The position numbers and the translations under genes are program-made. The notes below the pieces were generated by a model. That model made no database searches, was not told where the DNA came from, and saw only the letters and a program-made list of their open reading frames with translations. Positions 21,519 through 59,398 of a DNA stretch of 62,279 nt are shown here, in pieces (the stretch's first letter is position 1; each line of letters starts with the position of its first letter). The stretch comes from a virus (Duplodnaviria > Caudoviricetes): the IMG/VR virus record IMGVR_UViG_3300035338_000024, positions 1 to 62,279 of that record, one strand, 5' to 3'.

Positions 21519-21520
21519 AC

Positions 21521-25814: not shown

Positions 25815-25835
25815 GAAGCGGAGAGCGGAAGCCCC

Positions 25836-28926: not shown

Positions 28927-29882
28927 CCGAGCCCGCCAAGACCCAGACGACGCCCCCGGCCGACCCGCCGCCCGACCCGAAGGACCTGGAGCGGCAGCTG
29001 GCAGGCCTGGGCAGCGCGCCGAAGCTGGACGACCTCCTGGGGGAGGAAGAGGCCGCCGCCATGGCCGAGCCGGACGACCCGGCCGCCGTGGCCGAGGACC
29101 CGCCCCCGGCAGCCCCGGGGCCATCCGCCCAGCCGCCGGCAACACCCCCGCAGCAGCCCCCGGCCGACCCGCCGGCTACTCAGCCGCCTCCCGCGGCCGC
29201 CCAGCAGCCCCCGGCAGCAGATACGCCTCCGGTGGAGCCGCCCCAGCCGCCGCCCGTGACGCTGATCCCAGTTTTCAAGCCGCTGCCCCTCATCCCGGCG
29301 CAGCAGATCGAGCAGCTGAAGACCGAGGCCGCCGCGGAGCGCAAGCGGTACGAGGACGGGGAAGTCACCTTCGACGACTACATGGCCAAGGTCCGGGCCC
29401 TGGACGGCGCCGAAATGCAGAACCGCATGGCGTCGATGACCAACCAGGCCAACCGAACGGCCATGTGGGAGGCCGAGCAGCGCGCTTTCCTGGGGGCCCA
29501 CAAGGAACTTTCCAACCCGGCGGTTCACGACCTGTTCGTGACCCGGGTGAACCAATTGATCGAGCACCCCGACGCCGCGAAGGTCACCGACCGGCAGCTC
29601 CTGGAGGAGGCCTACAAGGTGGTCCTGGAGCTTCGCGGGGCCTTCGGCACGCCGACGCCCCCCAAGCCCAGCGCGGAGGAGCTCGCCCGCCAGGCCAAGC
29701 AGCAGCGGGCCGAGGGAGACGCCCGCCGGGCAGCCATGAACATCGGAGATCTACCCGCGGCCGGCACCAACGACGACAGCGCCGGCCTGTTCGCTTCCCT
29801 GGACAAGCTGGACGGCGACGCCCTGGAGGCCGCCCTGGCCCGCATGCCCGCGGAAGCAGTCGAGCGATACCTCGCCTCATAG
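28923..29882 (+). CDS. Putative capsid scaffolding protein
   Basis: Pro/acidic N-terminus, helical C-terminus, directly before capsid gene. Confidence 0.75.
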   Translation: MTEPAKTQTTPPADPPPDPKDLERQLAGLGSAPKLDDLLGEEEAAAMAEPDDPAAVAEDPPPAAPGPSAQPPATPPQQPPADPPATQPPPAAAQQPPAADTPPVEPPQPPPVTLIPVFKPLPLIPAQQIEQLKTEAAAERKRYEDGEVTFDDYMAKVRALDGAEMQNRMASMTNQANRTAMWEAEQRAFLGAHKELSNPAVHDLFVTRVNQLIEHPDAAKVTDRQLLEEAYKVVLELRGAFGTPTPPKPSAEELARQAKQQRAEGDARRAAMNIGDLPAAGTNDDSAGLFASLDKLDGDALEAALARMPAEAVERYLAS

Positions 29883-30055
29883 TGAGGCGGCAGTAAGAAG
29901 CACACCAGCACCCACCACACGGCCGGGTCCTCATACCCGACGGTTCGCCATAGCCGAAGAAGCCGCGCAAGGGCCAACGCTGGAACGGATGGAGCAGATG
30001 CGACCTGACGAGCCTGACACTCGACTCCAACTGATCCGACGAAAGGAACACATCC

Positions 30056-31198
30056 ATGCGCACCCTCATCGGCGTGAACGACCCCAAGGCCATCAAGAAG
30101 CAGTCCGCCTTCCTGGCCGTGGACATGGCCAAGAAATCCTACATCACCAGCCGGTTAATGGGCGTGGGGCAGGATTCCAGCATGCCCTGCCAGATGCTGA
30201 AGGAGCTGGAAAGCGACGCGGGCGAGTACATCAGCTTCGATCTGCTCATGCAGATGACGATGCAGCCCCGCGAGGGCGACCAGGTGTTGGAGAACTTCGA
30301 GGAGGACATGAAGTTCTACACCGACGGTCTCTACATCGACCAGCTTCGGGCCGGCGTCAACACCGGCGGCCGCATGACCCGCAAGCGGACGATCCATGCC
30401 CTGCGCGCCCGGGCCCGCCGGCTCCAGCGCGACTACTGGGCGCGGGTTTTCGATGAGCTGTGGTTCATGTACGCCTCCGGTGCCCGCGGCATCAACACCG
30501 GCTTCCTGTTTCCGCTCACCTACACGGGCTTTGCCGGCAACGCCTTCACGGCCCCCGATGCGGAGCACATCCAGTTCGCCGGCGGCACCAAGAAGGCCAC
30601 CCTGGCCGATACCAACAAGTTCGAGGTCGGGGAGATCGACAAGGCCGTGGCCGTCATTTCCGACATGGGCGGGGATGCTGGCAGCGGGTATGCCGGCACG
30701 GACGGAAACCTCCAGACCCCGGGCATGCTCCCGATTATGGTGGACGGCGAGGAGCACTACGTTGTGGTGGTGCATCCCTACTCCACCTACGACATGCGCA
30801 CTGCCACAGGGACGAACGGCTGGATGGACATCCAGAAGGCCGCCATCCAGGCCCTGGGCCGCAAGAGCCCGATCTTCACGGGCGCCAAGGGGATGCACAA
30901 CAACGTCCTCATCCACGAGCACCGCAACGTGATCCGCTTCAACGACTACGGCGCGGGCGGCAACGTGGCCGCGGCCCGCTCCCTGCTTCTGGGCGAGCAG
31001 GCCACCGTGATCGCCTTCGGCTCCCCCGGGACCGGCCTCCGGTTCGGCTGGCACGAGGAAGGCCGAGACAACGACAACCAGCTGGTCATCTCCACCCACA
31101 CCATCGTGGGCATGAAGAAGGTCAGCTACAACGGCAAGGACCTGGCGACCTACGCCATCGACTGCGCCTGCAAGCGGCCCGTGACCACCGCCCCGTAA
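30056..31198 (+). CDS. Major capsid protein, N4-gp56/DUF4043 family
   Basis: ELESDAGEYISFDL, LYIDQLRAGVNTGGRMTRKRT, ARSLLLGEQA. Confidence 0.92.
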   Translation: MRTLIGVNDPKAIKKQSAFLAVDMAKKSYITSRLMGVGQDSSMPCQMLKELESDAGEYISFDLLMQMTMQPREGDQVLENFEEDMKFYTDGLYIDQLRAGVNTGGRMTRKRTIHALRARARRLQRDYWARVFDELWFMYASGARGINTGFLFPLTYTGFAGNAFTAPDAEHIQFAGGTKKATLADTNKFEVGEIDKAVAVISDMGGDAGSGYAGTDGNLQTPGMLPIMVDGEEHYVVVVHPYSTYDMRTATGTNGWMDIQKAAIQALGRKSPIFTGAKGMHNNVLIHEHRNVIRFNDYGAGGNVAAARSLLLGEQATVIAFGSPGTGLRFGWHEEGRDNDNQLVISTHTIVGMKKVSYNGKDLATYAIDCACKRPVTTAP

Positions 31199-33217: not shown

Positions 33218-34075
33218 ATGGACATGGCCGACTTCTATCACGCGGTGCGCCTGGGGGTGCTGGATGCCAGCTACCCCACGGAGCAGATCGACGAAGGGCT
33301 GAAGGTGGCCCTGTTGGAGCTGCGGAAGCTCTACGAAACGCATTGCCCCGACCGGCTGCGGCGCCGGGCATTGCTGCCGAAGGTCGGGGCGGGCGTGTTC
33401 GGGGCGCCGGTTGACAGCCGCCGGATCCTCGCCGCCTACGACCTTCGGTCCGCCGCCATCCCCATCGAGAGCGTGACCATCCTGGAAGGGGAGGCCTGGC
33501 TGCGTGCCGCGAACCACGGGCTGGGGGAGGGAGCCCTGGTGACCACTTCCGGCCTCTCGGTAACGGGAGCTCCGGACGGCAACCGCTACACCGCGACCCT
33601 CTACGGTCCAGACCCCGGCAATCTGTTCGGGCTGCTCGAGCTGACCGCCCCCCAGGCCGGCTACATCGCGGGGGGCCACGTCTACGACGACAGCAAGATG
33701 GTGGAGATCCACCCCATCTATCCCCGGCAGGAGGAGGCCCTGAAGGGTTACAGCCGCCAGAACTACATATGGATGGGCAATGCCCTGCGGCTCACCAACC
33801 CCGCCAACCTGGAGGGGGACGTGGCCGCCGACTTCGTGCGCAAGCTCTCCGCGCTGGCCGACGTGGACGAAGACCACCACTTCGGCCTGGTGGCCTTCTG
33901 TGTGATGCAAATGGGCCAGCCGCCCGACCCCGAAACCCACGCCCGCCTGGTGGAGCCCTACCGGAAGAACCAGGCCTTCTATGCCTCCGCGTGGGAAACC
34001 CTGATCCAGAACCTGGAAAGCCTGGGCCGCCCACACATGGACACCTTCACCCACACCCCCGTTCGGGATTTCTGA
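33218..34075 (+). CDS. Putative head-tail adaptor with inserted FCCH-like beta domain
   Basis: Helical termini; ANHGLGEGALVTTSGL...YIAGG insertion. Confidence 0.55.
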   Translation: MDMADFYHAVRLGVLDASYPTEQIDEGLKVALLELRKLYETHCPDRLRRRALLPKVGAGVFGAPVDSRRILAAYDLRSAAIPIESVTILEGEAWLRAANHGLGEGALVTTSGLSVTGAPDGNRYTATLYGPDPGNLFGLLELTAPQAGYIAGGHVYDDSKMVEIHPIYPRQEEALKGYSRQNYIWMGNALRLTNPANLEGDVAADFVRKLSALADVDEDHHFGLVAFCVMQMGQPPDPETHARLVEPYRKNQAFYASAWETLIQNLESLGRPHMDTFTHTPVRDF

Positions 34076-34090
34076 CCGGGAGGCCGCGCC

Positions 34091-34810
34091 ATGAAGCATT
34101 GCCGTTCCAGATACGCCTGGCTGCTGGTTGCATTGCTGGTGCTGTGCGCCGGCAATGCGGCCGCATCCAGCCAGACCATGAGCACCAAGACGGTCGCCAA
34201 CTTTATCACGGAGCTGCGCGACCTCCTGAACGACAAGGACTCCGAAAACTATTTCTTCGGCGACGACGAGCTCCTGCGCTGGACCAACGCCGGGGCTGCC
34301 GAACTCGCCACCGTGGCCCACTGCTTCGAGGACCTTGTGACGATCAACCTGGCCGCCGGCCAGATTTTCTATGCCCTGCCGGCAAACTACCTGGCGGTGG
34401 TGGCCGTGGTGCTCATGGATGCGACCGGCGGGAACCCCCGGGGGCTCTTGAAGGGCAGTCCGGCGTCCATCGGCGCGAGCCAGGAGGACCTGCTGAAGGG
34501 CAAGCGCGTGGTGGGGTGGTTCACCTTCAAGCACCAGCTGGGCGTCTACCCCCTGCCGGCCGCCGGCACCACTGAGAAGCTCACCGTCATGCTGGCCCTG
34601 CCCGCCACCGCGGCGGCCGACACCAACGCCACCTTGCCCGTTCCCGCGATCTACGAGCAGGCCCTCCGCTACTACGTCCTGTCCCAGGCCCTCTACAAAG
34701 ATAAGCAGAGCGCCCGGGCGGCCTCCTTTCTGACCCTGTTCTACCAGGTGGCAACCAACATGCGGGCCGAGCTGGTGGAGCCGCTTTCCGGCAACCGGGA
34801 GGTCAAGTGA
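34091..34810 (+). CDS. Phage adaptor (DUF6682-like) with N-terminal signal peptide
   Basis: TVANFITELRDLLND...DDELLRWTNAG...YEQALRYYVLSQALYKD; GGGAGG RBS. Confidence 0.75.
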   Translation: MKHCRSRYAWLLVALLVLCAGNAAASSQTMSTKTVANFITELRDLLNDKDSENYFFGDDELLRWTNAGAAELATVAHCFEDLVTINLAAGQIFYALPANYLAVVAVVLMDATGGNPRGLLKGSPASIGASQEDLLKGKRVVGWFTFKHQLGVYPLPAAGTTEKLTVMLALPATAAADTNATLPVPAIYEQALRYYVLSQALYKDKQSARAASFLTLFYQVATNMRAELVEPLSGNREVK

Positions 34811-37539
34811 TGGCCACCGTTCGGTGCCGCTGGCTGGTTGCGCTGATCGCCCTGCTGGTCCTGGCGGGGTCTGCCGGGCTCTATGCCGTGCCACAGCCAA
34901 TCCGGGTGATGGAAGTCCCCGACCAGGAGCCTCAGCGGAAGGATTTTACGTTTTCGGGGAAGTGGATGCCCTCCATCGACCCGAGCCGGCTCGGCGCGGA
35001 GAACTTCCGCACCCTGCGCAACCTGCGGCCCATCCGCGAAACCATCGAGGGCACCAACGGCTACACCCTGGCGACCACCGCGCCGCTCGCCACCTACACC
35101 GACATCCGCGACGGGATCCAGCTCCGCAAGGACGGCCAGAGCCACATCCTGGTGTGGGCCGTGGACCCCGCCACGGGCCAGGGCCGCGTCTTCCTCAACA
35201 AGACCGAGGTGCCCGACGACGGACCCTTCGAAGCTACCCCCATCCATACCGACAGCGTCCCGGGGCTGACCGGATCCCTCGCGGAGCTTCCCCGGGGAGC
35301 CATAGGCTACGCCAACGGCGACGAGTCGATCATCTACTCGGGCGAGATCATGCCCGTGGGCGGGTTCTACCTGGTCAACGACGCAACCCTCGCGGGCGCA
35401 GTGTGGTTCGGTGACCAGGCTCAATCCACCCTCTCCACGCCCAGCGAGACCATCCCCATCGGAACCAAGCGGTTCGCCCTGGTCTTCGTGCCCCGGGCGC
35501 TGGACGCGCTGCACTTCACGGTAACGTCGGCCAATTCCACGGCCTCCACGGTGGCCGTCAAATACTGGACCGGCACCGCCTGGGCCGCCGTGACGGGGCT
35601 ATCCGACAGGACCAGCCTGGACGGCAAGGCCCTGGCCCAGAGCGGCACCATCTCCTTCGACTCCACCGTCGGCCTGGTGGCCCCGTGCCACTTCGAAGAT
35701 TTTTACAGCGCCGCCTACCTGCTGGAGTGGACCGCCGGGACCACCGCAATCCTGGGCCAGGTCACCAGCCGGGCGCCGCCCCAGCCTCTGCAGAACGCCT
35801 GGGACGGCGCCGACCGCCAGTTGACCCAGGTGCAGGTGTCCCGATCAGGCAAGTGGGAGGACTACACCCTCAACGCCAACGAACCGTCCGGCGTCGATTA
35901 CCCCATCGGCGCGGTGCTGGACGGCCTGGTGGCCACGACCGAGTTCATGGTGGTGATGAGCCAGGAACGCCTGAGCGCGCTTCGGCTCACGATGGTCGGC
36001 AACCTGGTCAACACCACGGGCAACACCACGGTCACCGTTCAGTATTGGTCGAGGTCCGGGGCCTGGGTGAACGTCTCCAACCCGGTGGACGGCACCAAGT
36101 CGGGCAACATCGCCCTCAACCGCTCAGGTCTGGTGAGCTGGACGCCCCCGGCGGTGACCGAGGAGGCCCAGCACGTCGAGTACGGGGCCATCTTCGGCAC
36201 GCCAGGCTTCGCGTACAAGGTCTTCTGGACGGGCGGCAACCTGTCCGGGACGGCCGGCGGCGCCAAGGAGCTGGTCATCGACCTGGTGCGGGGCCGACCC
36301 GCCCAGGAGCGGGTGCCGGCCTTCAAGTTCCTCCGGTCCTACAAGGGCCGGGTCCTGGGTTGCGGGGTCCCGAGCGAAAACGCCGGCAATCGGGTGGACT
36401 TCACGGCCACCAACGCCCCGGATGTTTGGAACGGCAGCGAGTCCTCCCGCGGCCCCACCACGGGCCCCCTCTACTTCGGCAGCGAGAACGAGCCGCTGAC
36501 CAACGGCGTCACCCTCTACAATCGATATGGCTCCAACGTCTTCGAGATCTTTTTCGCAACCTCCCGTTCCCGCTGCTTCCAGCTGAAGGGCTCGGCGCCC
36601 CGGGGATCCACCAACGACCTGTCCGAGGTCTTCTCCATAGACACGGTTTCGGATTCCGTGGGCTGCCCCGCGCCGAAAACCATGGTGGTGCTGGACGGCT
36701 TCATGGTGGGCCAGGATGTCGAGCGCAAGGTGGTGATGTTCCTCGACTCGTCCGGGCCCTACCGCTACGACGGGGCCACACTGACCCGGATACCGGGCAT
36801 CGAGAACTACTTCGACCCGGCCAACAGCGAGGCCATCAACGCCGACCTGATCCACCTGGCGGCCGGCTGGTACGACCCGGTTTACCGGGAGTGGAACATC
36901 GTCTTCCCTTCCGGCAGCGCGGCCGTCAGGAACAACACCTGGCTGGCCTTCAACGTCGAGCTCCAGAAGTGGTACGAGCGGTCCACCGGGGCCGCTCCCA
37001 TGCCGCAGGTCGGGTGGCTGGTCAAGGAGCCGTCCGGGGCCCACCGGGTTTATGCCGGTCTCGAAACCGGGCACATCGCCCAGCTGGAGGACGGCACCAG
37101 CTGGAACGGCACCCCCATGGACCAGGTGGTGGTGACCGGCGATATCTTCCCCACCGGCAGCATCGCCGACCAGACCATCATCCGCGAAATCAAGATCGTC
37201 TCCCGCCGTATCCCCGAAGCCCACACCCTGGCCATGACCTACTTCAAGGACACGGCCGCCGGGTCCGGCGTCGATCACCAGTGGATCAGCGACGCCGCTC
37301 ACCAGTGGTGGGACACGCCCGACCACCAGTGGGTGACCGAGCAACTCGCCACCGTGGACTTAAGCGCCGGCAGCAGCCTGACCCGGCTGGTGCGCACCAC
37401 CTCTCCCCTGAACCTCGTGGCCTGGAGTCACGGGTTCGGCTTCCAGGTTTCCACGACCACCACCGAGCGGGGCTTCCAGCCCATCGGCTGGTCCATCAAG
37501 TTCAACCGCGTGCGCGACGACCAAGGAACAACGAAATGA
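34810..37539 (+). CDS. Putative tail nozzle/stabilisation protein with N-terminal signal peptide
   Basis: 909 aa, beta-propeller-like motifs (VGCPAPKTM, VMFLDSSGPYRYDG, AGWYDP); podovirus position. Confidence 0.7.
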   Translation: MATVRCRWLVALIALLVLAGSAGLYAVPQPIRVMEVPDQEPQRKDFTFSGKWMPSIDPSRLGAENFRTLRNLRPIRETIEGTNGYTLATTAPLATYTDIRDGIQLRKDGQSHILVWAVDPATGQGRVFLNKTEVPDDGPFEATPIHTDSVPGLTGSLAELPRGAIGYANGDESIIYSGEIMPVGGFYLVNDATLAGAVWFGDQAQSTLSTPSETIPIGTKRFALVFVPRALDALHFTVTSANSTASTVAVKYWTGTAWAAVTGLSDRTSLDGKALAQSGTISFDSTVGLVAPCHFEDFYSAAYLLEWTAGTTAILGQVTSRAPPQPLQNAWDGADRQLTQVQVSRSGKWEDYTLNANEPSGVDYPIGAVLDGLVATTEFMVVMSQERLSALRLTMVGNLVNTTGNTTVTVQYWSRSGAWVNVSNPVDGTKSGNIALNRSGLVSWTPPAVTEEAQHVEYGAIFGTPGFAYKVFWTGGNLSGTAGGAKELVIDLVRGRPAQERVPAFKFLRSYKGRVLGCGVPSENAGNRVDFTATNAPDVWNGSESSRGPTTGPLYFGSENEPLTNGVTLYNRYGSNVFEIFFATSRSRCFQLKGSAPRGSTNDLSEVFSIDTVSDSVGCPAPKTMVVLDGFMVGQDVERKVVMFLDSSGPYRYDGATLTRIPGIENYFDPANSEAINADLIHLAAGWYDPVYREWNIVFPSGSAAVRNNTWLAFNVELQKWYERSTGAAPMPQVGWLVKEPSGAHRVYAGLETGHIAQLEDGTSWNGTPMDQVVVTGDIFPTGSIADQTIIREIKIVSRRIPEAHTLAMTYFKDTAAGSGVDHQWISDAAHQWWDTPDHQWVTEQLATVDLSAGSSLTRLVRTTSPLNLVAWSHGFGFQVSTTTTERGFQPIGWSIKFNRVRDDQGTTK

Positions 37540-38519
37540 AAAAGCTCTCCGCAACCCTCTTGTTGATCCTGCTGGCGGCGGCCTTCCTTTTGCCGGCGCC
37601 GGCCCGCGCCACGCGCACTTACGGGGCCAACGCCATCTATGGCGGGGCCGCCGGGGCCATGGACGCCATCAACGGGGCCAACCTGAGCGACGGGGACCGC
37701 TGTTGGGTTTCGGTTCTCGCTGAGGGGAGGTCCTACCTCTACATCTACAATTCCACGATTGGCGGCGTCGAGGCGGTGCCGTACGTCATCGCTCCCGACG
37801 TGAACGGGGGCAATGGCCGGTGGTTGCTGGTGAAGATCCAATTCGATTCCCTGAAGCTGAAGACCGGCGCCGAGGTCAACGATATTTCCGACGATGAAAC
37901 CCTGGCTGGCGCCTCACCAACCGCGCTCATCACTGAGCGGGCGGCGAAGAAATACAGCGACGAGCTTTACCGCGCCCTGTTCATCCCGGCCAGCGCCTTC
38001 ACCCCGCAGACCACAGCAGGGCCGGCCACGGGAAGCGTGGAGACCACCACGAACAAGGGCATGTTCGACTACCTGGCCTTCGACGGGACGGTGGAGGAGT
38101 ACGCCTTCGCCAACGTGGTGCTCGCCGGCTACGACTCCCGGGTCGGGGGGGCGATCAAGTTCAAGTTCCTCTGGAGGCCCTTCAACGACAACGGGAGCAC
38201 GTCCGACGGGGTGGAGTGGGAGGTGGCTGGCGCGGCCATTTCGGATAACGGCGCCGTGGACGTTGCCCCGGGGACTTCCCAGGTGGTGGCCGACACCCTG
38301 CTTGCCGGGGAGAATACCGTCCTGCACTACACCGACGCCACCCCGGCGGTGACCTTCGCGGGCACCTACACCAGCGCCACCAACGAGGCCCTGGTGCATC
38401 TGCAGGTTTCGCGAAACGTTGGCGGCACCGCCGACACCTACACCGCCGGCGACGCACTGCTGTTCGGCGTTCTCGTTCAGTACCCATTCAACGGCAAGGC
38501 GAATTTCACCGCCTGGTAA
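37536..38519 (+). CDS. Putative tail spike/fibre base protein with N-terminal signal peptide
   Basis: ATG at 37536 with AAGGA RBS and ATGA overlap; GGAAGAMDAING, ISDDETLAGASPTALITERAAKKY fibre-type motifs. Confidence 0.7.
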   Translation: MKKLSATLLLILLAAAFLLPAPARATRTYGANAIYGGAAGAMDAINGANLSDGDRCWVSVLAEGRSYLYIYNSTIGGVEAVPYVIAPDVNGGNGRWLLVKIQFDSLKLKTGAEVNDISDDETLAGASPTALITERAAKKYSDELYRALFIPASAFTPQTTAGPATGSVETTTNKGMFDYLAFDGTVEEYAFANVVLAGYDSRVGGAIKFKFLWRPFNDNGSTSDGVEWEVAGAAISDNGAVDVAPGTSQVVADTLLAGENTVLHYTDATPAVTFAGTYTSATNEALVHLQVSRNVGGTADTYTAGDALLFGVLVQYPFNGKANFTAW

Positions 38520-38531
38520 GGAGTGGCCTCC

Positions 38532-40865
38532 ATGCGCAAGCCGCATGCTATCGTCCTTCTGGCCTTGACCGTCGCTATCCTGGCGGCAGCTGCAGCCCAG
38601 GCCTTTCAGCCCGTCCTGCTGGGAAAATCCCTGTCCTTCCGTGGTGGTAAGCTCTACCGCTACGAGATTCCCTATTCCATCCGGCTGCACACTAACCAAT
38701 ATCTAAACCGAGCGGCCTGGGGGTCCACCAGCGGTAACACCCAGTTCACTTTCCGCACCATGCTGCGCCGCGGGAAACCGGATAGCGGCACTGCCTCCTA
38801 CACCCTGTTCAATGCCTATCTGGCAAGCAACATTTACCTGAACATCCGCATTTATCAGGACCGCCTAAGCCTCTACTTCAACAACGGCGGCACCACGGCA
38901 GCCCTGGCTGATACGGTCCATCTGCTGCGGGACTCTGGTTGGTACGACGTGGAGGTCATCTACGACTCTCCGAATGCCACCCAGGCTGATCGCCTGCGCT
39001 TCTACATCAACGGGGTGCGGCAATCCCTCAACGGAACCCCCACCTATCCGAGCCTGAGTTACGGGAGCACGGTTTCCTACGCGGGTTCAGTACCTTATGT
39101 CGGAAGCTTCGACGCCTCCACTCACTATTTCGACGGATACCTTGCGGATACTATCCTCGTCACCGGGGCGGCGATAGAGCCAAGCTCATTCGGAGAATTC
39201 AAAGGCAACCTATGGGTTCCCAAGAGCTACGCCGGGCCATACGGGGTAGGGGGATTTCATCTGAAGTACGATCAGGCCGGAACCCTGGGTCACGACAGCG
39301 CCGGGATCGGGAACTTCGCCCCGGGCAATTCTCCGGTTCAGACAAAGGACACGCCAACCAACCGATTCGCCATTCTTGACTCTCTTCGCCCCGCAACGAG
39401 CTCCGTAGCCGATGCTGGAACAAGGTTTGCCGGCACCAACACCGACCACGGCACCAGAGCGTTAGACTTGCCCATCCCCACCACCGGGAAATGGCAAATC
39501 GAAATCAAGCCCCTCCTCGATCTCTATACGCCGCCTTACGACCTCGTTGGAGTGATTAACGATAGCCACCGCTGCCTGTCTTCGCTCACCACTGCCGGGG
39601 CGTGGGCCTACTATAGCCGCTTAGGTACGTTCTTCAACAACGGCACCAGTGAGACCTACGGGGCCACCTGGGGGCAGAACAACATCATCGGCGTGGTATT
39701 CGACGCGGACACCGGACAGCTTGAATTCTTCAAGAACGGGGTATCTCAAGGGGTGGCCGCCACACTCCCGACCGGCGTACCTTATTGGTTCGCCTTTGGT
39801 ATGGTCGCGGACAGCAAGCGGGACAACTTGACCATCAACAATGGGTCGGTGGCGTTCAGCTACCCGGTTTCCGACGCCCAGCCTCTATGTACCTCCCTAA
39901 TGCCTGAGCCTGCCATACAGGATTGCGAAAGGGCATTCATCGCGATTCCCAGAACCGGTAACGGGGGCTCCTTCTCCCATTCCAACCTACTGATGGCCCC
40001 ACGGATGGCGTGGCTGAAGCGCCGGGACCTGGCAGGTCACCCTTTCATCTTTGACGCAGAGCGTGGTGTGGGCCGCTACCTGATGACCACGAGTGTCAAT
40101 GAAGACGGTACGGGGTATCCGAGCGAGGGTGTCACTTCATTCAATCCGGATGGCGTCTCCATCGTTAACGGAGCTGGCCTAGAGTTGGGCGTTAATGGCT
40201 CGACCTACATCGACTGGCTATTTTCCATGCTACCGCAGCATGGGGCGCAGGCCATCAAATTCACCAGGGCCACCGCAGGGGTGGAAACCGTAAACCATAA
40301 CCTCGGTGCGGCCCCGGAGTTAATCATCCTCAAGCGGATTGCTGGTGGAACCCAAGATTGGTTTGTCGGATGCGAATTTATCGCGGCCGCCTTGCCCTGG
40401 GACTACCACCTCAAACTCAACACGAACGATGCGAAGATTGCTACCGCCGGGTGGAACAACACGCCACCTACCGCCTCAGTGTTTACAAACGCACGTGGGG
40501 CTGCAGGAGATGTGTTTATGTCCTACCTATTTAGGTCAACCCCCAACCTCGTTAAAGTCGGCTACTGGGATAGCATCGCCAACGCCGACGGGCCTTTCAA
40601 CTACTGCGGTTTTCGACCCGCATTTCTCCTCTACAAGGCGGCCAGTGCCACGGGGCGTTGGTACATGGTCGACAGCAAGCGCAATTCCGAAAACCCGACA
40701 ACTCGTACTCTCATGGCAGATGATTCGGCGGCTGAAGCTTCCGGAACCTACTTCATAGACTTCGTTTCCAACGGGTTCAAAATCCGTTGGGCACAGACGG
40801 CCGGAAATCGTTTCATCTATCTCGCCATTGCCGAACAACCCCTGAAGTACGCCAACGCCCGCTAA
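38532..40865 (+). CDS. Tail fibre/receptor-binding protein (LamG- and SPRY-like domains) with N-terminal signal peptide
   Basis: DRLRFYING, YFDGYLAD, YGVGGFHL, IIGVVFDADTGQLEFFKNGVSQG, YCGFRPAF, FVSNGFKIR. Confidence 0.8.
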   Translation: MRKPHAIVLLALTVAILAAAAAQAFQPVLLGKSLSFRGGKLYRYEIPYSIRLHTNQYLNRAAWGSTSGNTQFTFRTMLRRGKPDSGTASYTLFNAYLASNIYLNIRIYQDRLSLYFNNGGTTAALADTVHLLRDSGWYDVEVIYDSPNATQADRLRFYINGVRQSLNGTPTYPSLSYGSTVSYAGSVPYVGSFDASTHYFDGYLADTILVTGAAIEPSSFGEFKGNLWVPKSYAGPYGVGGFHLKYDQAGTLGHDSAGIGNFAPGNSPVQTKDTPTNRFAILDSLRPATSSVADAGTRFAGTNTDHGTRALDLPIPTTGKWQIEIKPLLDLYTPPYDLVGVINDSHRCLSSLTTAGAWAYYSRLGTFFNNGTSETYGATWGQNNIIGVVFDADTGQLEFFKNGVSQGVAATLPTGVPYWFAFGMVADSKRDNLTINNGSVAFSYPVSDAQPLCTSLMPEPAIQDCERAFIAIPRTGNGGSFSHSNLLMAPRMAWLKRRDLAGHPFIFDAERGVGRYLMTTSVNEDGTGYPSEGVTSFNPDGVSIVNGAGLELGVNGSTYIDWLFSMLPQHGAQAIKFTRATAGVETVNHNLGAAPELIILKRIAGGTQDWFVGCEFIAAALPWDYHLKLNTNDAKIATAGWNNTPPTASVFTNARGAAGDVFMSYLFRSTPNLVKVGYWDSIANADGPFNYCGFRPAFLLYKAASATGRWYMVDSKRNSENPTTRTLMADDSAAEASGTYFIDFVSNGFKIRWAQTAGNRFIYLAIAEQPLKYANAR

Positions 40866-41520: not shown

Positions 41521-41934
41521 ATGGATATGAGCTTCACCCAGGATCCCCGCTACCACCAGCAGGTACTGCGGTTGGCCCGTTCCGATCCCTACGAGCAGGC
41601 AGCCGTGGATACCGTAATCGCCGATCAGGCCTTCGCGGACCAGGATATGCGCCGCCGGCTGGCCCTCATGCGCCTGGCTGGCGCCAAGTTGGCCCAGGAC
41701 GCGACCTTCAGACGGACGAAGGAGAACCTGGCCTTCAGCAAGGAGGTCGCCACCAGGCGGACCAAGATGGCCAAGCAGCAGAGGGCAGATGACAACCTGG
41801 CCCTGAACATCGGCACTGGCGTTGCGGCCCTGGGGGCCGTGGGTAGCGCCTACCTGGGGCACCAGAGCAAGCAGGCTGACCTATCGCTAGCCCGGGCCCA
41901 GGAGGAACGCCGCAAGGCCATTTTCGGAGCGTAA
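41521..41934 (+). CDS. Putative internal virion (ejection) protein
   Basis: Helical with G/A-rich hydrophobic segment; position. Confidence 0.55.
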   Translation: MDMSFTQDPRYHQQVLRLARSDPYEQAAVDTVIADQAFADQDMRRRLALMRLAGAKLAQDATFRRTKENLAFSKEVATRRTKMAKQQRADDNLALNIGTGVAALGAVGSAYLGHQSKQADLSLARAQEERRKAIFGA

Positions 41935-41949
41935 GGCGGGAGGTCCACC

Positions 41950-42651
41950 ATGTCGCGTCAAATGTCAATGGTCATCGGCCGCAAGATTCAGCCCAACTAC
42001 ATCGCGGCCCTGAATGCCCGGTCGCCGATGGTCTATCAGCAGCAGGCAGCGGCCGACGAGCGGGCGCACCAGTCCCGCATGGAAAAGCTCCAGAAGAAAT
42101 CCGACGCATTCGAAAGGGCATCCACACGCGAACAGCTTGAGCTTCAGGAGGAAGCCCTCAAGGACGCCCGTCGGCGGGGGCTGATAGGAGCAGGTGTCAG
42201 CCTGGGGGGCCTGGCGGCGCAAACCTACTTCTCCACCAAGGGCGCCAACGAAACCAAAGCCCTGGCCGACGAGATCTCCCGGAACACCCAGGACATTGAC
42301 CGCAGCGGATCCAGCATGCCGTCCCAACCGCACGGCGGCGGCCAGCCGGCAGGCGGCGGGATCTTCCGGCCCGAGTCCGGGGGCGCCGGGTCCGGCGGTT
42401 CGAGCTTCCTTACCGGCTTGAAGGACAACGCCGGCTCAATTCTGATCGGGGGCGGCGCGGGTCTGGCGGCCTCGATGCTGGGCAAGAAGCCCCTGGAGAA
42501 GGCGGCCATTGGCGCTGGCACGGGCGCCCTCACGGGCTGGTTGGCGTCTGGCGGGGCGAGGAAACTTATTTCCGGCGAGGGCGGGGGTGGCAGCATCCTT
42601 GCCTCTGCCGCGTCCGCTCTTGTGGGCGGGCTGGGAGGTCTCTTCTCATGA
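41950..42651 (+). CDS. Putative internal virion (ejection) protein
   Basis: Coiled coil plus glycine-zipper segments. Confidence 0.6.
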   Translation: MSRQMSMVIGRKIQPNYIAALNARSPMVYQQQAAADERAHQSRMEKLQKKSDAFERASTREQLELQEEALKDARRRGLIGAGVSLGGLAAQTYFSTKGANETKALADEISRNTQDIDRSGSSMPSQPHGGGQPAGGGIFRPESGGAGSGGSSFLTGLKDNAGSILIGGGAGLAASMLGKKPLEKAAIGAGTGALTGWLASGGARKLISGEGGGGSILASAASALVGGLGGLFS

Positions 42652-43727
42652 TCGCACCCGAACGCACCCCCATGTCCACCATGATGAACTACTCCCGGCA
42701 GATGTCCGGAAACGTGGGGCGGTTCTCCACCGTTCCAATGACGCGGACATATGGCGTTGACGCCCCGGTTGCTCCACGAGTGCAGGCCGCCGAGGCAGAT
42801 CCCGCCCCCCAGCCTGTTGCTCCCGCTGTGCCCGCGGCAGCCGTCCCGGGAGCGGTGGGCGATCCCAACGCGGACCCAGCCCCAGAAGGTCCGCAGATGG
42901 ACACCTCCAGCTTCAGCGGCTACGCCACTGACCGCCTGGGCGAGATCGGCGGGGCCCGGAGCAAGATGGGGGGCTTCGGAATGGATCGGGCGAAGTCCGC
43001 AACCTTGGCCGGATTGACGGCGGGCCTCTTGGGGGCTGACGTGCCCGCCGCTATGGTATCCGGCGCCATCCCTGGTCCCATGGGAATTGCCGGAATCACC
43101 GCGGAAAGTTTGGCCCACGCCACCGGGGTGGCGGCCACGAAGGACAAGATTGGTGCCGACTTGGATGCCCTCGGATACAGCGAGGCCGAAAAGAGGTCCC
43201 TTATGGAATCCACCATCAAGGACTTGGACACGCCGGCCCAGGCCGCTCACGCCTTGCAGGATCCCGAGGCCGTCATGGCTGACCCGAAAGCCGAAAAGGC
43301 CCGGCAAGCGATCACCAAGCACACCAGCGAGCTTGATACCAGCATGACGGGCATGCTGGGACGGTGGGGGAAAGCGGTTGCCGACCTGTTCAGCGGGTCC
43401 GTGAATGCAGACAAGGGCATAAACCAGGGGCCTGACAAGGTGGGGGACCCGTCCATGGGAATGGGGCCGGGTATCGGCAACTACGGTGTTGGGGAGGTCA
43501 GTGGCCTGAGCGGAATGGGGTTTGATCGAAGTCCAGGGGTCGACATAGGCGACCACGCTGCAGGCCTTGCTGGAGGCTTGGGCGGCCGCGGGTTCGGCCC
43601 GGGAGGTTCAGATGTGGGCGGCGGCTCAAGCACGGGAAGCGCCAGCGGCAGCTCCGGTGGAGGTTTTGGCGGTGGTTATGGCGATCCCAGTGGAAACGAA
43701 GGATTTGGAGGTCATTCAGTATATTGA
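42648..43727 (+). CDS. Putative internal virion protein, Gly-rich C-terminus
   Basis: ATGA overlap; low-complexity G/S tail. Confidence 0.55.
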   Translation: MIAPERTPMSTMMNYSRQMSGNVGRFSTVPMTRTYGVDAPVAPRVQAAEADPAPQPVAPAVPAAAVPGAVGDPNADPAPEGPQMDTSSFSGYATDRLGEIGGARSKMGGFGMDRAKSATLAGLTAGLLGADVPAAMVSGAIPGPMGIAGITAESLAHATGVAATKDKIGADLDALGYSEAEKRSLMESTIKDLDTPAQAAHALQDPEAVMADPKAEKARQAITKHTSELDTSMTGMLGRWGKAVADLFSGSVNADKGINQGPDKVGDPSMGMGPGIGNYGVGEVSGLSGMGFDRSPGVDIGDHAAGLAGGLGGRGFGPGGSDVGGGSSTGSASGSSGGGFGGGYGDPSGNEGFGGHSVY

Positions 43728-43742
43728 CAAGGCCGAATTCAA
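43724..43742 (+). promoter_or_regulatory. Putative late promoter/regulator box, copy 2
   Basis: TTGACAAGGCCGAATTCAA. Confidence 0.55.
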
Positions 43743-43779
43743 GGGCCGGCAACATGAACCCCAGGGAAGGGCACACCAT

Positions 43780-45030
43780 ATGACCTACGATCCGATCATC
43801 AGCCAGGTGAACCGTCTGGGGGACACGCTGCGCGAAGGCCAGGAGGCAGAGGGCAAGCGCGCCCTCATGGCCTACCAGATGCGCCGGCAGGCTGACCAGG
43901 ACGCGCTCGCCGCTCCGGGCCTGAAGCTGCAATCGGCCGAGGCCGCCGACGAGCTGGCCAAGCGCGAGGCCCCCGTTCGCGTCTCCCACATCTTCGGAAC
44001 CGACGAGGCCATGGAGTTGGCGACCTGGAAGCCCGGCATCGGCGGCGACAAGGACACCGGCAAGGTGGAGAAGGGGGAGCCTTCACTCCTGCGGAAGTTT
44101 GGCGACATGTTCGACGCCGAGGTGGACGTGGACCCCCAGAGCGGAACCTATGGCGCCTTCGTGAACAAGAAGACTCGGAAGGCCCTGACCCATGCCGAGG
44201 TCAACCGGCGGGCCGGCGAGGTCGAAGCCCTCTTCGTGGCCAACATGGGCCTGAACCGCACCATGGAGACCATGGCCCGCAAGATGGACGAGCGGCACAT
44301 TGCCATCGGTAAGGCCGTGGTGGCCGGCCAGATGAGTTCCCAGGACGCCGCAAACGAGCTGGAGGGGCTGCGGGCCGCCCGGGCCGAACTGCGCGAGCTA
44401 CAGAACGACCCCGCCCGGCAGATCGAGCTGCTGGAGCAGAAGAAGGCCTACCTCTCACAGTTTTCCGGCAATGAGTTCGAGAAGGCCATCGCCCGGGTGG
44501 ACAAGTCTATCGACGAGCGCCGCAAGGCCCTGGAGCGCCAGCAGGAGCAGGGTGCGGAGTTCGAGCACCGGGAGAAGCTCACCGACAAACAGATCGCGGC
44601 CGACAAGACCCTGGCCGACCGGAAACACGGCCAGGATAAAGAGCTTTTGGCCATGAGGCTGTCCGGGGAAAAGAGCATCGAGCGCATTCGCGCCCGGAAC
44701 CAATCGAAGGAAACCATGCCGGCCGAGGTCAAGCTGGCCGAGTGGTACGCCCAGAAGAAGGGGATCCCCGCCGACAAGGCGTGGGAAACCATCACCGCCC
44801 AGAAGAATTTCGGGGAGGCCGTCAAGGCCTACAACGATTACATCGAATCCAAGTGGGCCCCGGGCCAGACCGTGGAGGAGGCCGCCGCCATCCAGGAGCA
44901 GGCCCGCAGCCTGTTTCTCTCCAAGCTGCCGGGCATGGACCAGCCGACAGCACCCCCGCCCAAGCAGAAAAGCTGGAAGGACGTCTACAACCAGATGCAG
45001 CAATCCACCCAGCCGGGCGGGGGCGAATAG
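43780..45030 (+). CDS. Putative ejection protein (coiled coil)
   Basis: ATG at 43780; long helical protein directly before giant gene. Confidence 0.65.
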   Translation: MTYDPIISQVNRLGDTLREGQEAEGKRALMAYQMRRQADQDALAAPGLKLQSAEAADELAKREAPVRVSHIFGTDEAMELATWKPGIGGDKDTGKVEKGEPSLLRKFGDMFDAEVDVDPQSGTYGAFVNKKTRKALTHAEVNRRAGEVEALFVANMGLNRTMETMARKMDERHIAIGKAVVAGQMSSQDAANELEGLRAARAELRELQNDPARQIELLEQKKAYLSQFSGNEFEKAIARVDKSIDERRKALERQQEQGAEFEHREKLTDKQIAADKTLADRKHGQDKELLAMRLSGEKSIERIRARNQSKETMPAEVKLAEWYAQKKGIPADKAWETITAQKNFGEAVKAYNDYIESKWAPGQTVEEAAAIQEQARSLFLSKLPGMDQPTAPPPKQKSWKDVYNQMQQSTQPGGGE

Positions 45031-48000
45031 ATGGACGAGATCGTCAAGGGCTGGCTGCAGGACCCTGAGTTCCGGCGCCTGGGCGCGGAGCAACAGCGGT
45101 CCATCGTTGGCCACCACTTCGACACCGACTATGCCGACGATGAGTTCAGGGCCCTGGCAGCCGACGAGCAGGCCCGGGTGCGGGAGTATTTCCTCGCGCA
45201 ATCCGGCCTGAAGCCCCCCGCGCCGCCCCCGCCCAGGATGGCACAGCGGCTTCCCACCCAGCGCCCCGGCGCGGGGGTGGGTGCCAGCGCCCGGCCGGTT
45301 CAGACCCGGGAGCTGGCCACCGATCCCGAGTTGCCCGAGAACCGGCGTATGCGGGAACTCTCCCAGGGGCCGGCGGCGCGACTGGCCGGCGACCTGGAAC
45401 AGGGGATGCTCCAGGTGAACCTGGGGCGCCTGCGCTCCCGCCAGGTCTACGACGGCGACGACACTCCCGAGGTCCGCAACGGGATCGCCAACATCAAGGC
45501 CCAGATAAGGCCGCCGGCTGAGAATGTCGGCACCGTGGAAAGCTTCCTGGGTTCGGCCTTCCGCATGTTGCCCACCATGGGTGCCACCATGTGGACCGGC
45601 GCCAAAGCGGGCGCGAAGGAGCTTCTGCAGCATCCCGAGGCCCCGGCCCCGGCCTTCGCCAGGGGATTCCAGCTGAGCGCGGCCATGGAAATGGGCCGCA
45701 TCGAGGCGGGCCTCGCCTACGATGAGCTGCTGGAGCTCCGGGACGACCGAGGCAACGCCATAGACCCGAAGGTCGCCCGTCTGGTGGCAGGCGGCGTGGG
45801 CGCGGTCAACGGCCTGATCGAGGTGGCGCAGATCGGGTGGCTGGCCAAGGCCTTCCCCGGGGCGCAGTCGGTCGCCACCCGGGCCATCGCCCGGGGCCTG
45901 GCCAAGCTGGGCCAGAGCGGAGCCCTGAAGGCTGCGGCCGCACGCGCTTCGAAAGTGGCCGGCAGCATCGCGGGCCGCAACGCCATCAAGTTTGGGGAGT
46001 TCCTGGCCGGCGAGGTGGCCCAGGAGGTCACCCAGGAGTCGGCCAACATCGTCGGCGCCTTCGTCGCGGCTGAGATGGACGCCGAGATGAACGCGGCCGG
46101 CATCCCCGAGCTTCAGCGGGCGGCCATCATCGAGCGCCTGAAGGAGACCGCCGTCGAGAGCGCCAAGGCCTTCGTCGTCATCGGAGCGCCCGGTGCTGCC
46201 GTCTCCGTCGGCCACGACGTGCAGCACTCCCTGAAGAACCCCGGCGAGGAGGCGTCCACCCCCGAGGACATTATCCTGGGGCGCCCCGCCGGCAGCGCAC
46301 CGCCTTCAGCGCCCCCTGTCGGCCCCGACGGCGGCACTCGCCGTGCCCCCATGCGCATGGCCTCCGAGGCCCCGGCGGCCGACTCCTTCATGCCGGAAGC
46401 CGCGGCACCCCCAGCCGTGTCACCGATCCCTGCGGCACCCCCTGGCCCCGGAGCCCCGCCAGCAGCCCCCGTGTCCGCGGGGGCCTTGTCTCGCCTCGCC
46501 GTTCCAGCGCCTCCGAGGACCCCTGCGGACGTGGCCCTGGACGAGGACGATGCCCTGGCCGGCGCCGATCCCCGGGAGGTGGACCGCCTGGCCGCCCAGG
46601 CCGAGCAGGAGAAGCAGGCCGAGGTTGCCATCCAGGCCAACGACGCCGCCACCAGCCTGCAGAACGACCGGCCAGAGCCCACCGAAGGGCAGAAGAAGGC
46701 CGGCAACTACAAAAAGGGGCACATCAACGTTCTGGGGTTCGACATCACCGTCGAGAACCCGGCCGGCTCCACCCGCAGCGGGAAGGCGCCGGACGGGACC
46801 GAATGGGAAGTCGAAATGCAGGACCACTACGGCTACTTCCGCCGGTCTCTGGGAAAGGACGGCGATCAGGTGGACGTCTTCCTGGGCCCGGCGGTCAACA
46901 CTCCGAAGGCCTTCGTCATCGACCAGATGGATCCCAACACCGGGGAGTTTGACGAGCACAAGGTCATCCTGGGGGCCGCCAACGCCCAACAGGCCCGGGA
47001 GATCTACCAGCGCAACTATGAGGAGGGGTGGAACGGCTTCGGCGGCATGACCGAAATGGAGCCAGCGCAGCTGAAGGCCTGGCTGGGGGACGGCACCCGC
47101 AAGAGGACCCCGCTCGATCCCTCGGTTCCGGTAAAGGCCGTCAAGTCGGCGGCGACGGTCGGCGGGATGGCCTTCACGGACAAGGAGGCCGCGGCGCTTG
47201 AGGCCGCCAAGAAGGCCGACGCCCTGGCCAAGGCCAACAGCAACGGGGAGACGGCCCGGAAGGTGGCCGCCGGCTTGGGGATCGAGTTCAACGGGGTGGA
47301 CCCGGCCGCGCAGTACCTGTTCACCGACCCTGTTACGGGCGACACCTTCGCCGTTTCCAAGCTGGGGGACGCTCACAAGCGCTTGGCCGAGCTGCGGGCC
47401 AAGAAGGGGGTTCCCGCGCCGGCGCCGGAAGCGCTGGCTGTTCCCCAGGCCCCGGACGGACTGGAATCGATCCTGGACGAGATCCGGAAGAAGGGCGCCG
47501 AGCAACGAGCCAAGGAGGAAGCCGAGGCCCGCACCGGTGCCGAGCCTGAAGCGCAATCGGGCGCCCCGACGCCCAGCACTGATTCGACACCTGAGAAGAT
47601 CCCCAAGCCGAAGCGTCAGCGAGCGAAGCAGGCCCCCATCACCGTCCGTGGCTGGATCAAGAAGATGGGCGGAATCAACCCCGTGAACATGGCCGCCGAG
47701 TTCAAGGAGGCGGCCGTGGCAGTCAAGATGCTGCTTCGGAAAAACGGCACCCCATACGATAAGATTGAAACAGCCTTAAAATCAGAAGGTTATCTCCTCG
47801 AAGGTGAAAATCTGCTTGACCTTCTGATTGGCGATCACGAACGGGCCAAGGAGGTCCTGAAGCGCCGGAACACCGACATTACTGCGCGTAGTGGCGACGA
47901 CCTAACCCACAAGGAGAAGCAACTCCTATCGCAAATGGAATACGAGCCCGAGGATCCTCCCCCGGGCGAGTACGTCCAGGTCAATGCCGAAGACCTCCCC

Positions 48001-59395: not shown

Positions 59396-59398
59396 CCC

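What the first reader, a model, noticed from the sequence alone, without database searches (positions are those of the whole stretch)
34091..40865. Four consecutive tail genes all carry Sec-type signal peptides: candidate export-coupled (periplasmic/membrane) tail assembly
Seen: adaptor MKHCRSRYAWLLVALLVLCAGNAAA, nozzle-like MATVRCRWLVALIALLVLAGSAGLYA, spike-like MKKLSATLLLILLAAAFLLPAPARA and fibre MRKPHAIVLLALTVAILAAAAAQA. Each has a basic n-region, a hydrophobic core and a c-region ending in Ala (three with A-x-A), and each start has its own RBS or stop/start overlap. The four leaders are not copies of each other. Portal, capsid, the first adaptor (33218) and the ejection proteins have none. 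Known: tailed-phage virions assemble in the cytoplasm and tail proteins normally lack signal peptides. Inference: the distal tail is exported or membrane-tethered and joins heads at the membrane or at lysis. This could prevent premature ejection, allow periplasmic folding, or block receptors in the infected cell. Best candidate here for an undescribed system.
Basis: partly seen in the sequence, partly recalled or inferred. Interest (0 to 1): 0.92.

Follow-up and report, generated by a model that had tools for sequence, protein, structure and literature searches.

The report
Phage tail proteins made with export signals
All four outer tail proteins of this short-tailed prophage start with a classic bacterial secretion signal, and related uncultured phages share this all-or-none trait, which suggests that their tails are exported and meet the DNA-filled heads only at lysis.

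Summary
The four genes are a SU10-type adaptor, a nozzle (fold-confirmed) and two fibre proteins. Each starts at an RBS-supported ATG with a basic n-region, a hydrophobic core and a small-x-small site. None of the other 18 + strand phage genes tested in the window does.

In 48 related sources, 15 carry leaders on every adaptor-2, nozzle and fibre-N protein, and 33 carry none. No mixed genome was seen, and five further new loci kept the rule. Leader-bearing relatives run from 43 to 65% GC, so this is not a high-GC artefact.

In 91 leader-bearing adaptor representatives, position -1 is A/G/S in 89. Leaderless relatives start with Met right at that junction, so cleavage would give the same N-terminus.

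Gene trees need at least 4 changes of leader state, always matched within a genome. The host has BamA and signal peptidase I.

Best reading (about 0.55): genuine Sec/SPase-I precursors, meaning the distal tail is exported while head, portal, first adaptor and internal proteins stay cytoplasmic, and the two join at lysis. Export, cleavage and place of assembly are inferred, not shown. Six literature searches found no precedent, and no cultured relative was found.

The parts
34091..34810 (+). Second head-to-tail adaptor (SU10-type), 239 aa. The predicted signal peptide is residues 1-25 (34091-34165), ending in an AAA site. The RBS GGGAGG lies at 34077-34082.
   Evidence: Pfam PF24175 scores 78.7 bits, matching from residue 34. 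The junction is invariant in alignment A2.
34810..37539 (+). Tail nozzle protein, 909 aa. The predicted signal peptide is residues 1-26 (34810-34887), ending in an LYA site.
   Evidence: The AF2 model has pLDDT 84 with residues 1-37 disordered. Foldseek matches the cyanophage A4 tail, the SU10 nozzle (E 1e-16), T7 gp12 and P22 gp10.
37536..38519 (+). Small fibre or receptor-binding protein, 327 aa, with the N-terminal G-G-x-x-G-x-(L/M)-D-x-I-x-G motif shared by the 'fibreN' family. The predicted signal peptide is residues 1-25 (37536-37610), ending in an ARA site.
   Evidence: Relatives either carry a leader or start M-A-N-x just before the motif. The protein atlas gives viral clusters, one with Mtd_N in 46% of members, which is a lead only.
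38532..40865 (+). Large fibre or virion structural protein, 777 aa, with LamG-like, SPRY and DUF7483 regions. The predicted signal peptide is residues 1-24 (38532-38603), ending in an AQA site.
   Evidence: Pfam DUF7483 scores 184 bits and SPRY 38.7 bits. phrog_19943 also matches. There are 75 phage records with homologues, and the three whose N-termini I read lack the leader.
33218..34075 (+). First adaptor-like protein, 285 aa, with no leader. It is the candidate cytoplasmic head-completion ring.
   Evidence: No signal peptide is called. None of 13 family members is flagged. The model has pLDDT 62 and gives only weak matches to phage connectors and adaptors, E 4e-3 to 0.1.
23462..31198 (+). 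Head module without leaders: large terminase (23462-25063), P22-like portal (25836-28121) and major capsid protein (30056-31198).
41521..58821 (+). Internal or ejection-type proteins without leaders. They include the conserved 137-aa protein at 41521 and a 4596-aa multidomain protein at 45031-58821.
   Evidence: Synteny is conserved in the related loci. No signal peptide is called.

Best explanation
The window holds an apparently intact prophage of a short-tailed phage with a P22-type portal and a SU10/T7-type tail. It sits in a diderm bacterium that carries a dissimilatory sulfite reductase.

Its distal tail consists of a second adaptor ring, a nozzle and two fibre proteins. All four are made as secretory precursors with classical Sec-type signal peptides cut by signal peptidase I. 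This part is shown at the sequence level.

Inferred: the four proteins are moved across the inner membrane. The leader is removed at the small-x-small site, which leaves the same N-terminus that leaderless relatives have. The tail parts wait, or pre-assemble, outside the cytoplasm. Capsid, portal, the first adaptor-like protein and the internal proteins have no leader and build DNA-filled heads in the cytoplasm. Heads and tails can therefore meet only when the inner membrane is breached at lysis.

The trait is an all-or-none state of the whole tail module. It has switched several times among related phages.
For: 1. The starts are real. Each has an RBS and a stop/start overlap, and Met30 of the adaptor has no RBS.
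2. In the window, 4 of 22 + strand genes are flagged, and they are the four consecutive tail genes.
3. They are tail proteins.
4. The states match within genomes. Of 48 sources, 15 have leaders on every adaptor-2, nozzle and fibre-N member present, and 33 have none. Five further new loci keep the rule: L065, L075 and L076 with leaders, L068 and L077 without.
5. It is not a GC artefact. Leader-bearing loci span 43-65% GC.
6. The junction looks like a signal peptidase I site. In 91 leader-bearing adaptor representatives, position -1 is A in 71, G in 12 and S in 6. Position -3 is A, V, S, C, T, L, I or G in 87. Position -2 is F, Y or W in 63. The n-region is net positive in 88, and the median leader length is 22.
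7. Leaderless adaptors begin M, M-A or M-G directly before the conserved S/T-Q, so cleavage would reproduce their N-terminus.
8. The state is labile yet coupled. The nozzle trees need 5-6 changes, at least 4 of them forced by supported branches. The adaptor tree needs 9, at least 4 forced.
9. There is a single nozzle gene in the host genome, so virion nozzles must come from the precursor.
10. The host has BamA and signal peptidase I, and its BamA carries a similar leader.
11. In SU10, fibres dock on the adaptor through their N-termini (passages of PMC9509320). A retained hydrophobic extension would sit at that interface.
Against: - Nothing here shows export, cleavage or where assembly takes place. 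No signal-peptide predictor was available, so the calls rest on my own heuristic and on reading by eye. The heuristic missed several leaders that are plain by eye.
- Podovirus tails are normally built stepwise on the filled head, and DNA is lost without them. This model needs heads that stay sealed until lysis. The candidate sealing protein, the first adaptor, has only a weak fold match and also occurs in leaderless relatives.
- Frequent switches of an all-or-none state across three to five genes are hard to explain if mixed states are lethal.
- The independent-contrast test gave only 3 supported pairs. All three agree, but p = 0.25.
- The position of the window's nozzle in the tree differs between the two runs.
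- No lysis genes were identified in the window.
- Tests for a reason to export were negative. Cys is not enriched (0.71% against 1.01%), and N-x-S/T sites are not enriched. The early mature region is no more acidic.
- The hmmsearch profile included the leader columns, so 91 of 115 is not a prevalence estimate.
Confidence: 0.55

Rival explanations
1. The leaders are real targeting signals, but the exported pool is not the one built into virions. Most protein goes to the membrane or periplasm for another job, such as receptor masking, exclusion of other phages, help with lysis, or hiding from cytoplasmic immune sensors. Virions would then use a minor cytoplasmic pool, or precursors tethered at the inner membrane where heads dock.
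For: This reading shares all the sequence evidence for genuine signals. It would make mixed or switching states less harmful, which fits the 4 or more switches in both trees. The window's adaptor and nozzle have in-frame Met30 and Met34.
Against: - Neither internal Met has an RBS.
- Leader-bearing relatives mostly have no Met near the junction.
- An accessory role would not require every tail component, including the adaptor and nozzle, to carry a leader with no exception in the loci read.
- The cut site reproduces the N-terminus of leaderless forms, which points to the processed form being the functional one.
Confidence: 0.22
2. The hydrophobic N-termini are kept in the virion. They would act as membrane-active helices at the adaptor-nozzle-fibre junction and insert into the host envelope during infection, rather than acting as export signals in the producing cell.
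For: In SU10-type tails the fibre N-termini dock on the adaptor (PMC9509320 passages). SU10 tail proteins rearrange to form a longer nozzle on infection (abstract in the listing).
Against: - A membrane helix does not need a positive n-region or the conserved small residues at -3 and -1.
- Leaderless relatives have complete proteins that start exactly at the junction.
- One relative carries what looks by eye like a twin-arginine leader in place of a Sec leader at the fibre position, although no HMM confirmed it.
- The nozzle leader is disordered and detached in the model.
Confidence: 0.08
3. Artefact: the starts are mis-called, or Ala/Leu/Val-rich upstream extensions arose by chance in GC-rich DNA.
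For: The window is 65-69% GC in this region. Stop codons are rare, so ORFs tend to run on upstream.
Against: - The starts have RBSs and overlap the preceding stops.
- Only 4 of 22 phage genes are flagged.
- The same leaders occur on the same genes in relatives of 43-50% GC, with I/F/K-rich sequences.
- Only 3 of 224 control family members are flagged.
Confidence: 0.02

Closest known systems
SU10/T7-type podovirus tail (adaptor dodecamer, nozzle hexamer, fibres docked by their N-termini)
   Same: The adaptor matches Pfam SU10_adaptor. The nozzle model matches the nozzles of SU10, T7, P22 and cyanophage A4. The gene order is adaptor, then nozzle, then fibres.
   Different: Every distal component starts with a secretion signal. 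There is an extra leaderless adaptor-like protein upstream. No tail needle was identified. No cultured relative was found for the adaptor or nozzle.
Exported late proteins of tailed phages: signal-peptide and SAR endolysins, spanins Rz/Rz1, T4 antiholin RI (recalled; the RI paper PMC8385771 was seen only in the listing)
   Same: These are phage late proteins sent through Sec to the periplasm ahead of lysis. They act only once the holin fires.
   Different: Those are lysis factors, not virion parts. Here the exported set is the tail machine itself. The leaders are strongly hydrophobic and have conserved cut sites, unlike SAR domains.
Filamentous phage (Ff) coat proteins pVIII and pIII (recalled)
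   Same: These are virion structural proteins made with cleavable Sec leaders and assembled at or beyond the inner membrane.
   Different: They belong to an unrelated virus type that extrudes without a preformed capsid. Here an icosahedral DNA-filled head must be built in the cytoplasm.
Separate head and tail pathways of long-tailed phages such as lambda and T4 (recalled)
   Same: Heads are sealed by completion proteins and tails are built independently, then the two join. The join also works in lysates.
   Different: In those phages both pathways run in the cytoplasm. Short-tailed phages normally build the tail directly on the head.

Membership tests
Pfam PF24175 SU10_adaptor (adaptor, 34091-34810) | Score above the Pfam gathering cut-off over most of the profile | tested here: met
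   The score is 78.7 bits against a cut-off of 27. Profile positions 2-176 of 194 match residues 34-219. phrog_399 matches at E 4e-21.
Podovirus nozzle (T7 gp12 / SU10 gp17 / P22 gp10 type) | Beta-propeller-centred nozzle fold, encoded directly after the adaptor gene | tested here: met
   The AF2 model has pLDDT 84. The top 25 Foldseek hits in the PDB are all chains of phage tail, portal-tail or virion entries (several named nozzle), at E 1e-18 to 4e-7 and probability 1.00. TM-scores are only 0.3-0.45. No Pfam or PHROG family matches.
Sec-type signal peptide cut by signal peptidase I | Net positive n-region, uncharged hydrophobic core of about 10 or more residues, and small residues at -3 and -1 | tested here: met
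   All four window proteins fit. For 91 adaptor homologues, -1 is A/G/S in 89, -3 is an allowed residue in 87, and the n-region is positive in 88.
Sec-type signal peptide cut by signal peptidase I | Score from a trained predictor (SignalP, Phobius) | not testable with these tools
   No such predictor is installed. My own rule-based test was used instead, and it missed some leaders that are clear by eye.
Sec-type signal peptide cut by signal peptidase I | Actual translocation and cleavage | not testable with these tools
   The evidence is indirect only. Leaderless relatives start at the junction, and the host has signal peptidase I and BamA.
Lipoprotein signal (signal peptidase II) | Lipobox with an invariant Cys at +1 | tested here: not met
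   Position +1 is G, A, S, E, D, R or V in the 91 adaptors, never Cys. The four window proteins have S, V, T and F at +1.
SAR (signal-arrest-release) domain | Weakly hydrophobic Gly/Ala/Ser-rich N-terminal helix with no cleavage site | tested here: not met
   Leader hydropathy is 3.2-3.5 in the window and mostly 2.5-4.0 in the leader-bearing relatives. The cut site is conserved.
Twin-arginine (Tat) signal, for the ORF at L022:13611-14432 only | S/T-R-R-x-F-L-K motif before a mildly hydrophobic core, recognised by a Tat HMM | tested here: inconclusive
   The motif T-R-R-K-F-I-E followed by A-Q-A is seen by eye. There is no NCBIfam hit at E 1 or below and no Pfam hit at E 0.01 or below.
Pfam PF24299 DUF7483 fibre / virion structural protein (38532-40865) | Score above the gathering cut-off | tested here: met
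   The score is 184.4 bits against a cut-off of 27. SPRY scores 38.7 against 26.3. phrog_19943 matches at E 2e-84.

The most novel reading that the evidence does not exclude
A large group of uncultured short-tailed phages builds its virion in two compartments. Heads are filled and sealed in the cytoplasm. The whole distal tail (adaptor ring, nozzle, fibres) is secreted by Sec, in some cases perhaps by Tat, and processed by the host's signal peptidase. It is stored or pre-assembled in the periplasm and joins the head only when the holin opens the inner membrane. This would be an assembly pathway not described for any tailed phage. Because the state has flipped repeatedly between 'all exported' and 'none exported', it may be an adaptive switch, for example to keep tail proteins away from cytoplasmic immune sensors.
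Probability: 0.45. Interest if true: 0.95.

Novelty: new variant of a known kind. Interest (0 to 1): 0.85.

Why it matters
Textbook tailed-phage assembly takes place entirely in the cytoplasm. A conserved, coordinated set of secretion signals on every distal tail protein would mean that part of the virion is made by the host's secretory pathway and that infectious particles are completed only at or after lysis. The signals appear in about 90 or more protein clusters at 50% identity.

This would bear on:
- how assembly, DNA retention in tailless heads and lysis timing are understood
- how phage structural genes are annotated, since signal peptides are often used to rule out virion proteins
- which host factors (SecA, signal peptidase I) a phage depends on
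- how phages might hide structural proteins from cytoplasmic defence sensors

The trait is directly testable with fusions, N-terminal proteomics and cryo-ET once a host-phage pair or a surrogate expression system is available.

Tried and rejected
- Internal starts (Met30 of the adaptor, Met34 of the nozzle): no RBS in the window, and no conserved Met near the junction in relatives. Rejected as a general explanation.
- High-GC artefact: rejected by the low-GC relatives.
- Leaders as copies of one another: rejected.
- Disulfide or glycosylation need as the reason for export. In the C-terminal 820 aa of 10 leader-bearing against 24 leaderless nozzles, Cys is 0.71% against 1.01% (p 0.026, uncorrected, rows not independent, and in the wrong direction). 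The N-x-S/T observed/expected ratio is 1.09 against 1.05 (p 0.84). No support.
- More acidic early mature region in exported nozzles: net charge -1.1 (n = 8) against -0.56 (n = 16), p 0.50. No support.
- First adaptor specific to leader-bearing phages: no. It occurs in 9 leader-bearing and 4 leaderless loci.
- Profile comparison of first against second adaptor: hhalign probability 3%. Homology not shown.
- Homology of the Tat-like ORF in L022 to the large fibre: best BLASTP E 0.019, and E 1.4 at the N-terminus. Not shown. The window ORF at 40953 against L022:14449 gave no alignment.
- Complex prediction on the first adaptor with the mature second adaptor: no verdict (score 0.00 against a mark of 0.32). 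This is not evidence either way.
- Close relatives by single-protein scans: none in genome contigs or viral contigs. No phage record matched the window nozzle or adaptor, or the L025 nozzle. The L025 adaptor gave only two distant actinophage hits.
- Word-index protein search: 4 nozzle relatives and only the adaptor itself.
- Sample of the host's phylum: 4 of 401 genomes, G000 included, have an adaptor match at E 1e-8 or below.
- Lysis genes: none recognised.
- Literature: six searches found no report of signal peptides on tailed-phage tail proteins or of periplasmic tail assembly. I saw only listings and abstract starts, plus passages of PMC9509320. Supplements are closed and were not seen. 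Subscription journals are not covered.
Full report
WHAT IS THERE

The window lies in a contig of at least 96.9 kb (the window spans bases 34617-96895 of it) in a 4.77-Mb draft genome (a contig of 238.7 kb is on record for the adaptor protein). It carries an apparently intact prophage:
- a tyrosine recombinase at 1-1074 on the minus strand
- the large terminase, a P22-type portal and the major capsid protein
- a leaderless adaptor-like gene at 33218
- the four genes of the finding
- a conserved set of internal proteins, then a 4596-aa multidomain protein

The host has a dissimilatory sulfite reductase DsrA above cut-off, BamA above cut-off and signal peptidase I. It is therefore a diderm with the usual export machinery. 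Its own BamA starts with a leader of the same style as the phage leaders.

The four starts are well supported. Each ATG has GGGAGG, AAGGAA or AGGAG 7-8 nt upstream. Each either overlaps the preceding stop or follows it within 15 nt. The alternative Met30 of the adaptor has no RBS.

With a rule-based test of my own, exactly these 4 of 22 + strand phage genes qualify. The test asks for a positive n-region, a 9-residue uncharged core of mean hydropathy 2.0 or more, and small residues at -3 and -1. The leaders are not duplicates of each other.

The proteins are real tail parts:
- The adaptor passes Pfam SU10_adaptor, and the match begins only at residue 34.
- The nozzle model (pLDDT 84, leader disordered) matches the nozzles of cyanophage A4, SU10, T7 and P22.
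- The large fibre passes DUF7483 and has 75 phage records with homologues.
- The small fibre shares an N-terminal Gly-rich motif with many viral proteins.

RELATIVES: AN ALL-OR-NONE STATE

Single-protein scans found nothing close. A nozzle alignment retrieved 46 viral contigs.

I clustered all stop-to-stop frames of these 46 contigs, one relative's genome locus and the window, then read the N-termini. The result was a clean split. Fifteen sources, about ten distinct lineages, carry a leader on every adaptor-2, nozzle and fibre-N protein they encode. Thirty-three carry none.

The heuristic flagged 36 of 157 members of these three families, all in the leader-bearing loci. It flagged 3 of 224 members of 26 other conserved families. 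Capsid was 0 of 21, portal 0 of 6, first adaptor 0 of 13, the giant protein 0 of 12 and the 137-aa internal protein 0 of 18. The rule missed some leaders that are obvious by eye, so part of the classification is my reading.

Further scans added three new leader-bearing lineages (L065, L075, L076) and two leaderless ones (L068, L077). All five were internally consistent.

Leader-bearing loci range from 43 to 65% GC, and the low-GC leaders are I/F/K-rich. This removes the GC-artefact explanation.

The three cultured-phage homologues of the large fibre that I read lack the leader.

THE JUNCTION

Leader-bearing adaptors share a conserved G/A/S-S-Q-x-x-S right after the leader.

A profile search of 1.84 billion cluster representatives found 3308 adaptor relatives at E 1e-3 or below, 146 of them at 1e-30 or below. 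Of the 149 best, 110 have a hydrophobic N-terminus.

Among 115 full-length ones, 91 have 14 or more residues before the conserved Ser:
- Position -1 is A in 71, G in 12 and S in 6.
- Position -3 is A in 30, V in 29, S in 9 and C in 8, with a few L, I, T and G.
- Position -2 is F, Y or W in 63.
- The first eight residues are net positive in 88.
- The median leader length is 22.

This is the textbook pattern of a signal peptidase I site.

The leaderless members start M, M-A or M-G immediately before the same S/T-Q. Cleavage of the precursors would therefore recreate the N-terminus that the leaderless proteins already have. Because the profile included the leader columns, 91 of 115 is not a prevalence figure.

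EVOLUTION

On nozzle trees built from the C-terminal 820 residues, with leaders excluded, the leader state needs 5 changes in 34 rows and 6 changes in 38 rows. At least 4 are forced by well-supported branches.

The adaptor tree of 113 rows needs 9 changes, at least 4 of them forced.

The state is therefore labile, yet always concordant within a genome. The formal independent-pairs test found only 3 supported contrasts. All three are concordant, and p = 0.25. The statistical case thus rests on the absence of mixed genomes rather than on that test. The window's own position in the nozzle tree is unstable between the two runs.

MECHANISM

Shown: conserved, coordinated leaders of signal peptidase I type sit on exactly the distal tail proteins. 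Head, portal, first adaptor and internal proteins have none.

Inferred: the proteins are exported to the periplasm and processed there, and they join the heads when the inner membrane is opened at lysis.

The extra leaderless adaptor-like protein could seal heads in the cytoplasm. Its fold match to phage connectors is weak, with best E 4e-3 and model pLDDT 62, and leaderless relatives have it too.

I could not find a reason for export. Cys and N-x-S/T content and early-mature charge do not differ in the expected direction. I found no lysis genes.

One relative (L022) has, at the fibre position, an ORF with what looks like a twin-arginine leader. If real, this would argue that reaching the periplasm is the selected function. 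No HMM confirmed it.

RIVALS

Three rival readings remain:
- An exported pool with a non-virion role, alongside a cytoplasmic or membrane-tethered virion pool (0.22).
- Retained N-terminal helices used during infection (0.08).
- Artefact (0.02).

The conserved cut site, the equivalence of N-termini, the single nozzle gene in the genome and the lack of exceptions argue against the first two but do not exclude them.

NOVELTY

The proteins belong to known tail families. The coordinated secretion signals do not match anything I could find. Six full-text searches returned no such report (listings only, supplements closed). No cultured relative was found for the adaptor or nozzle.

The nearest analogies are exported lysis proteins of tailed phages and the leader-bearing coat proteins of filamentous phages (recalled).

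I rate it a new variant of a known kind, with high interest. If two-compartment assembly is real, it would be a new assembly pathway.

Noticed in passing
window 45031-58821 (+): A single 4596-aa ORF follows the internal-protein genes. It carries InPase, N6_Mtase, AAA_34/Helicase_C_4 (Strawberry-notch-like helicase) and RadC-JAB domains. This looks like a polyvalent, probably virion-packaged anti-restriction protein. Relatives of 950-1870 aa or more occupy the same position in related loci.
   Followed up: partly
L022:13611-14432 (+): A 274-aa ORF at the fibre position of a 60% GC leader-bearing relative starts with a motif that looks like a twin-arginine (Tat) signal, T-R-R-K-F-I-E followed by A-Q-A. 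No Tat HMM hit was found. Similarity to the window's large fibre is only weak.
   Followed up: partly
L031, L033, L039, L054, L026, L038, L037 nozzle N-termini: Many leaderless nozzles have long N-terminal extensions. These are made of tandem short repeats of the type (E/D)-x-P-x-A-P-D-x-E-V. Leader-bearing nozzles keep one such P-x-x-P-D element after the cut site. Their function is unknown.
   Followed up: no
L015, L041, L035, L031, L045 and others: The SU10-type adaptor gene is present in 2-3 tandem paralogues in several relatives. In leader-bearing loci every paralogue has its own leader. Some cluster representatives (P0031, P0053, P0063, P0069, P0096) place a leader and a 250-360-aa extra domain in front of the adaptor domain.
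   Followed up: no
L075:5866-7134 and L076:397-747: Two leader-bearing relatives encode further leader-bearing proteins upstream of the adaptors, one of 422 aa and one of 116 aa. The exported set may therefore be larger than adaptor, nozzle and fibres in some phages. L075 also has a 109-aa leaderless ORF inserted between adaptor and nozzle.
   Followed up: no
window 58841-60291 (+): After the giant gene comes a 184-aa ORF with a hydrophobic segment near the N-terminus but no positive n-region. It could be a membrane or holin-like protein. Next is a DUF1353 protein matching phrog_1158 'tail assembly chaperone' from residue 138, so its true start is probably downstream of the listed TTG.
   Followed up: partly
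window 15847-22105 (-): A block of about 50% GC sits inside the 60-69% GC prophage. It has ORFs of 1091, 356, 442 and 194 aa on the minus strand. The 194-aa ORF matches a phage endonuclease family. This is probably an acquired restriction or defence cassette. The larger ORFs were not annotated.
   Followed up: no
L055 / L041: The viral contig behind L041, a leader-bearing lineage, has the same length (62,246 bp) as a contig titled 'MAG: Deltaproteobacteria bacterium', which was retrieved with the adaptor alignment. Together with DsrA in the window's host, this hints that sulfate-reducing diderms host at least part of this phage group.
   Followed up: partly
window 40953-41516 (+): The only leaderless ORF between the fibres and the internal proteins is 187 aa. 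It has a GGGAGG RBS but no family match. It shows no similarity to the ORF in the same position of L022.
   Followed up: partly
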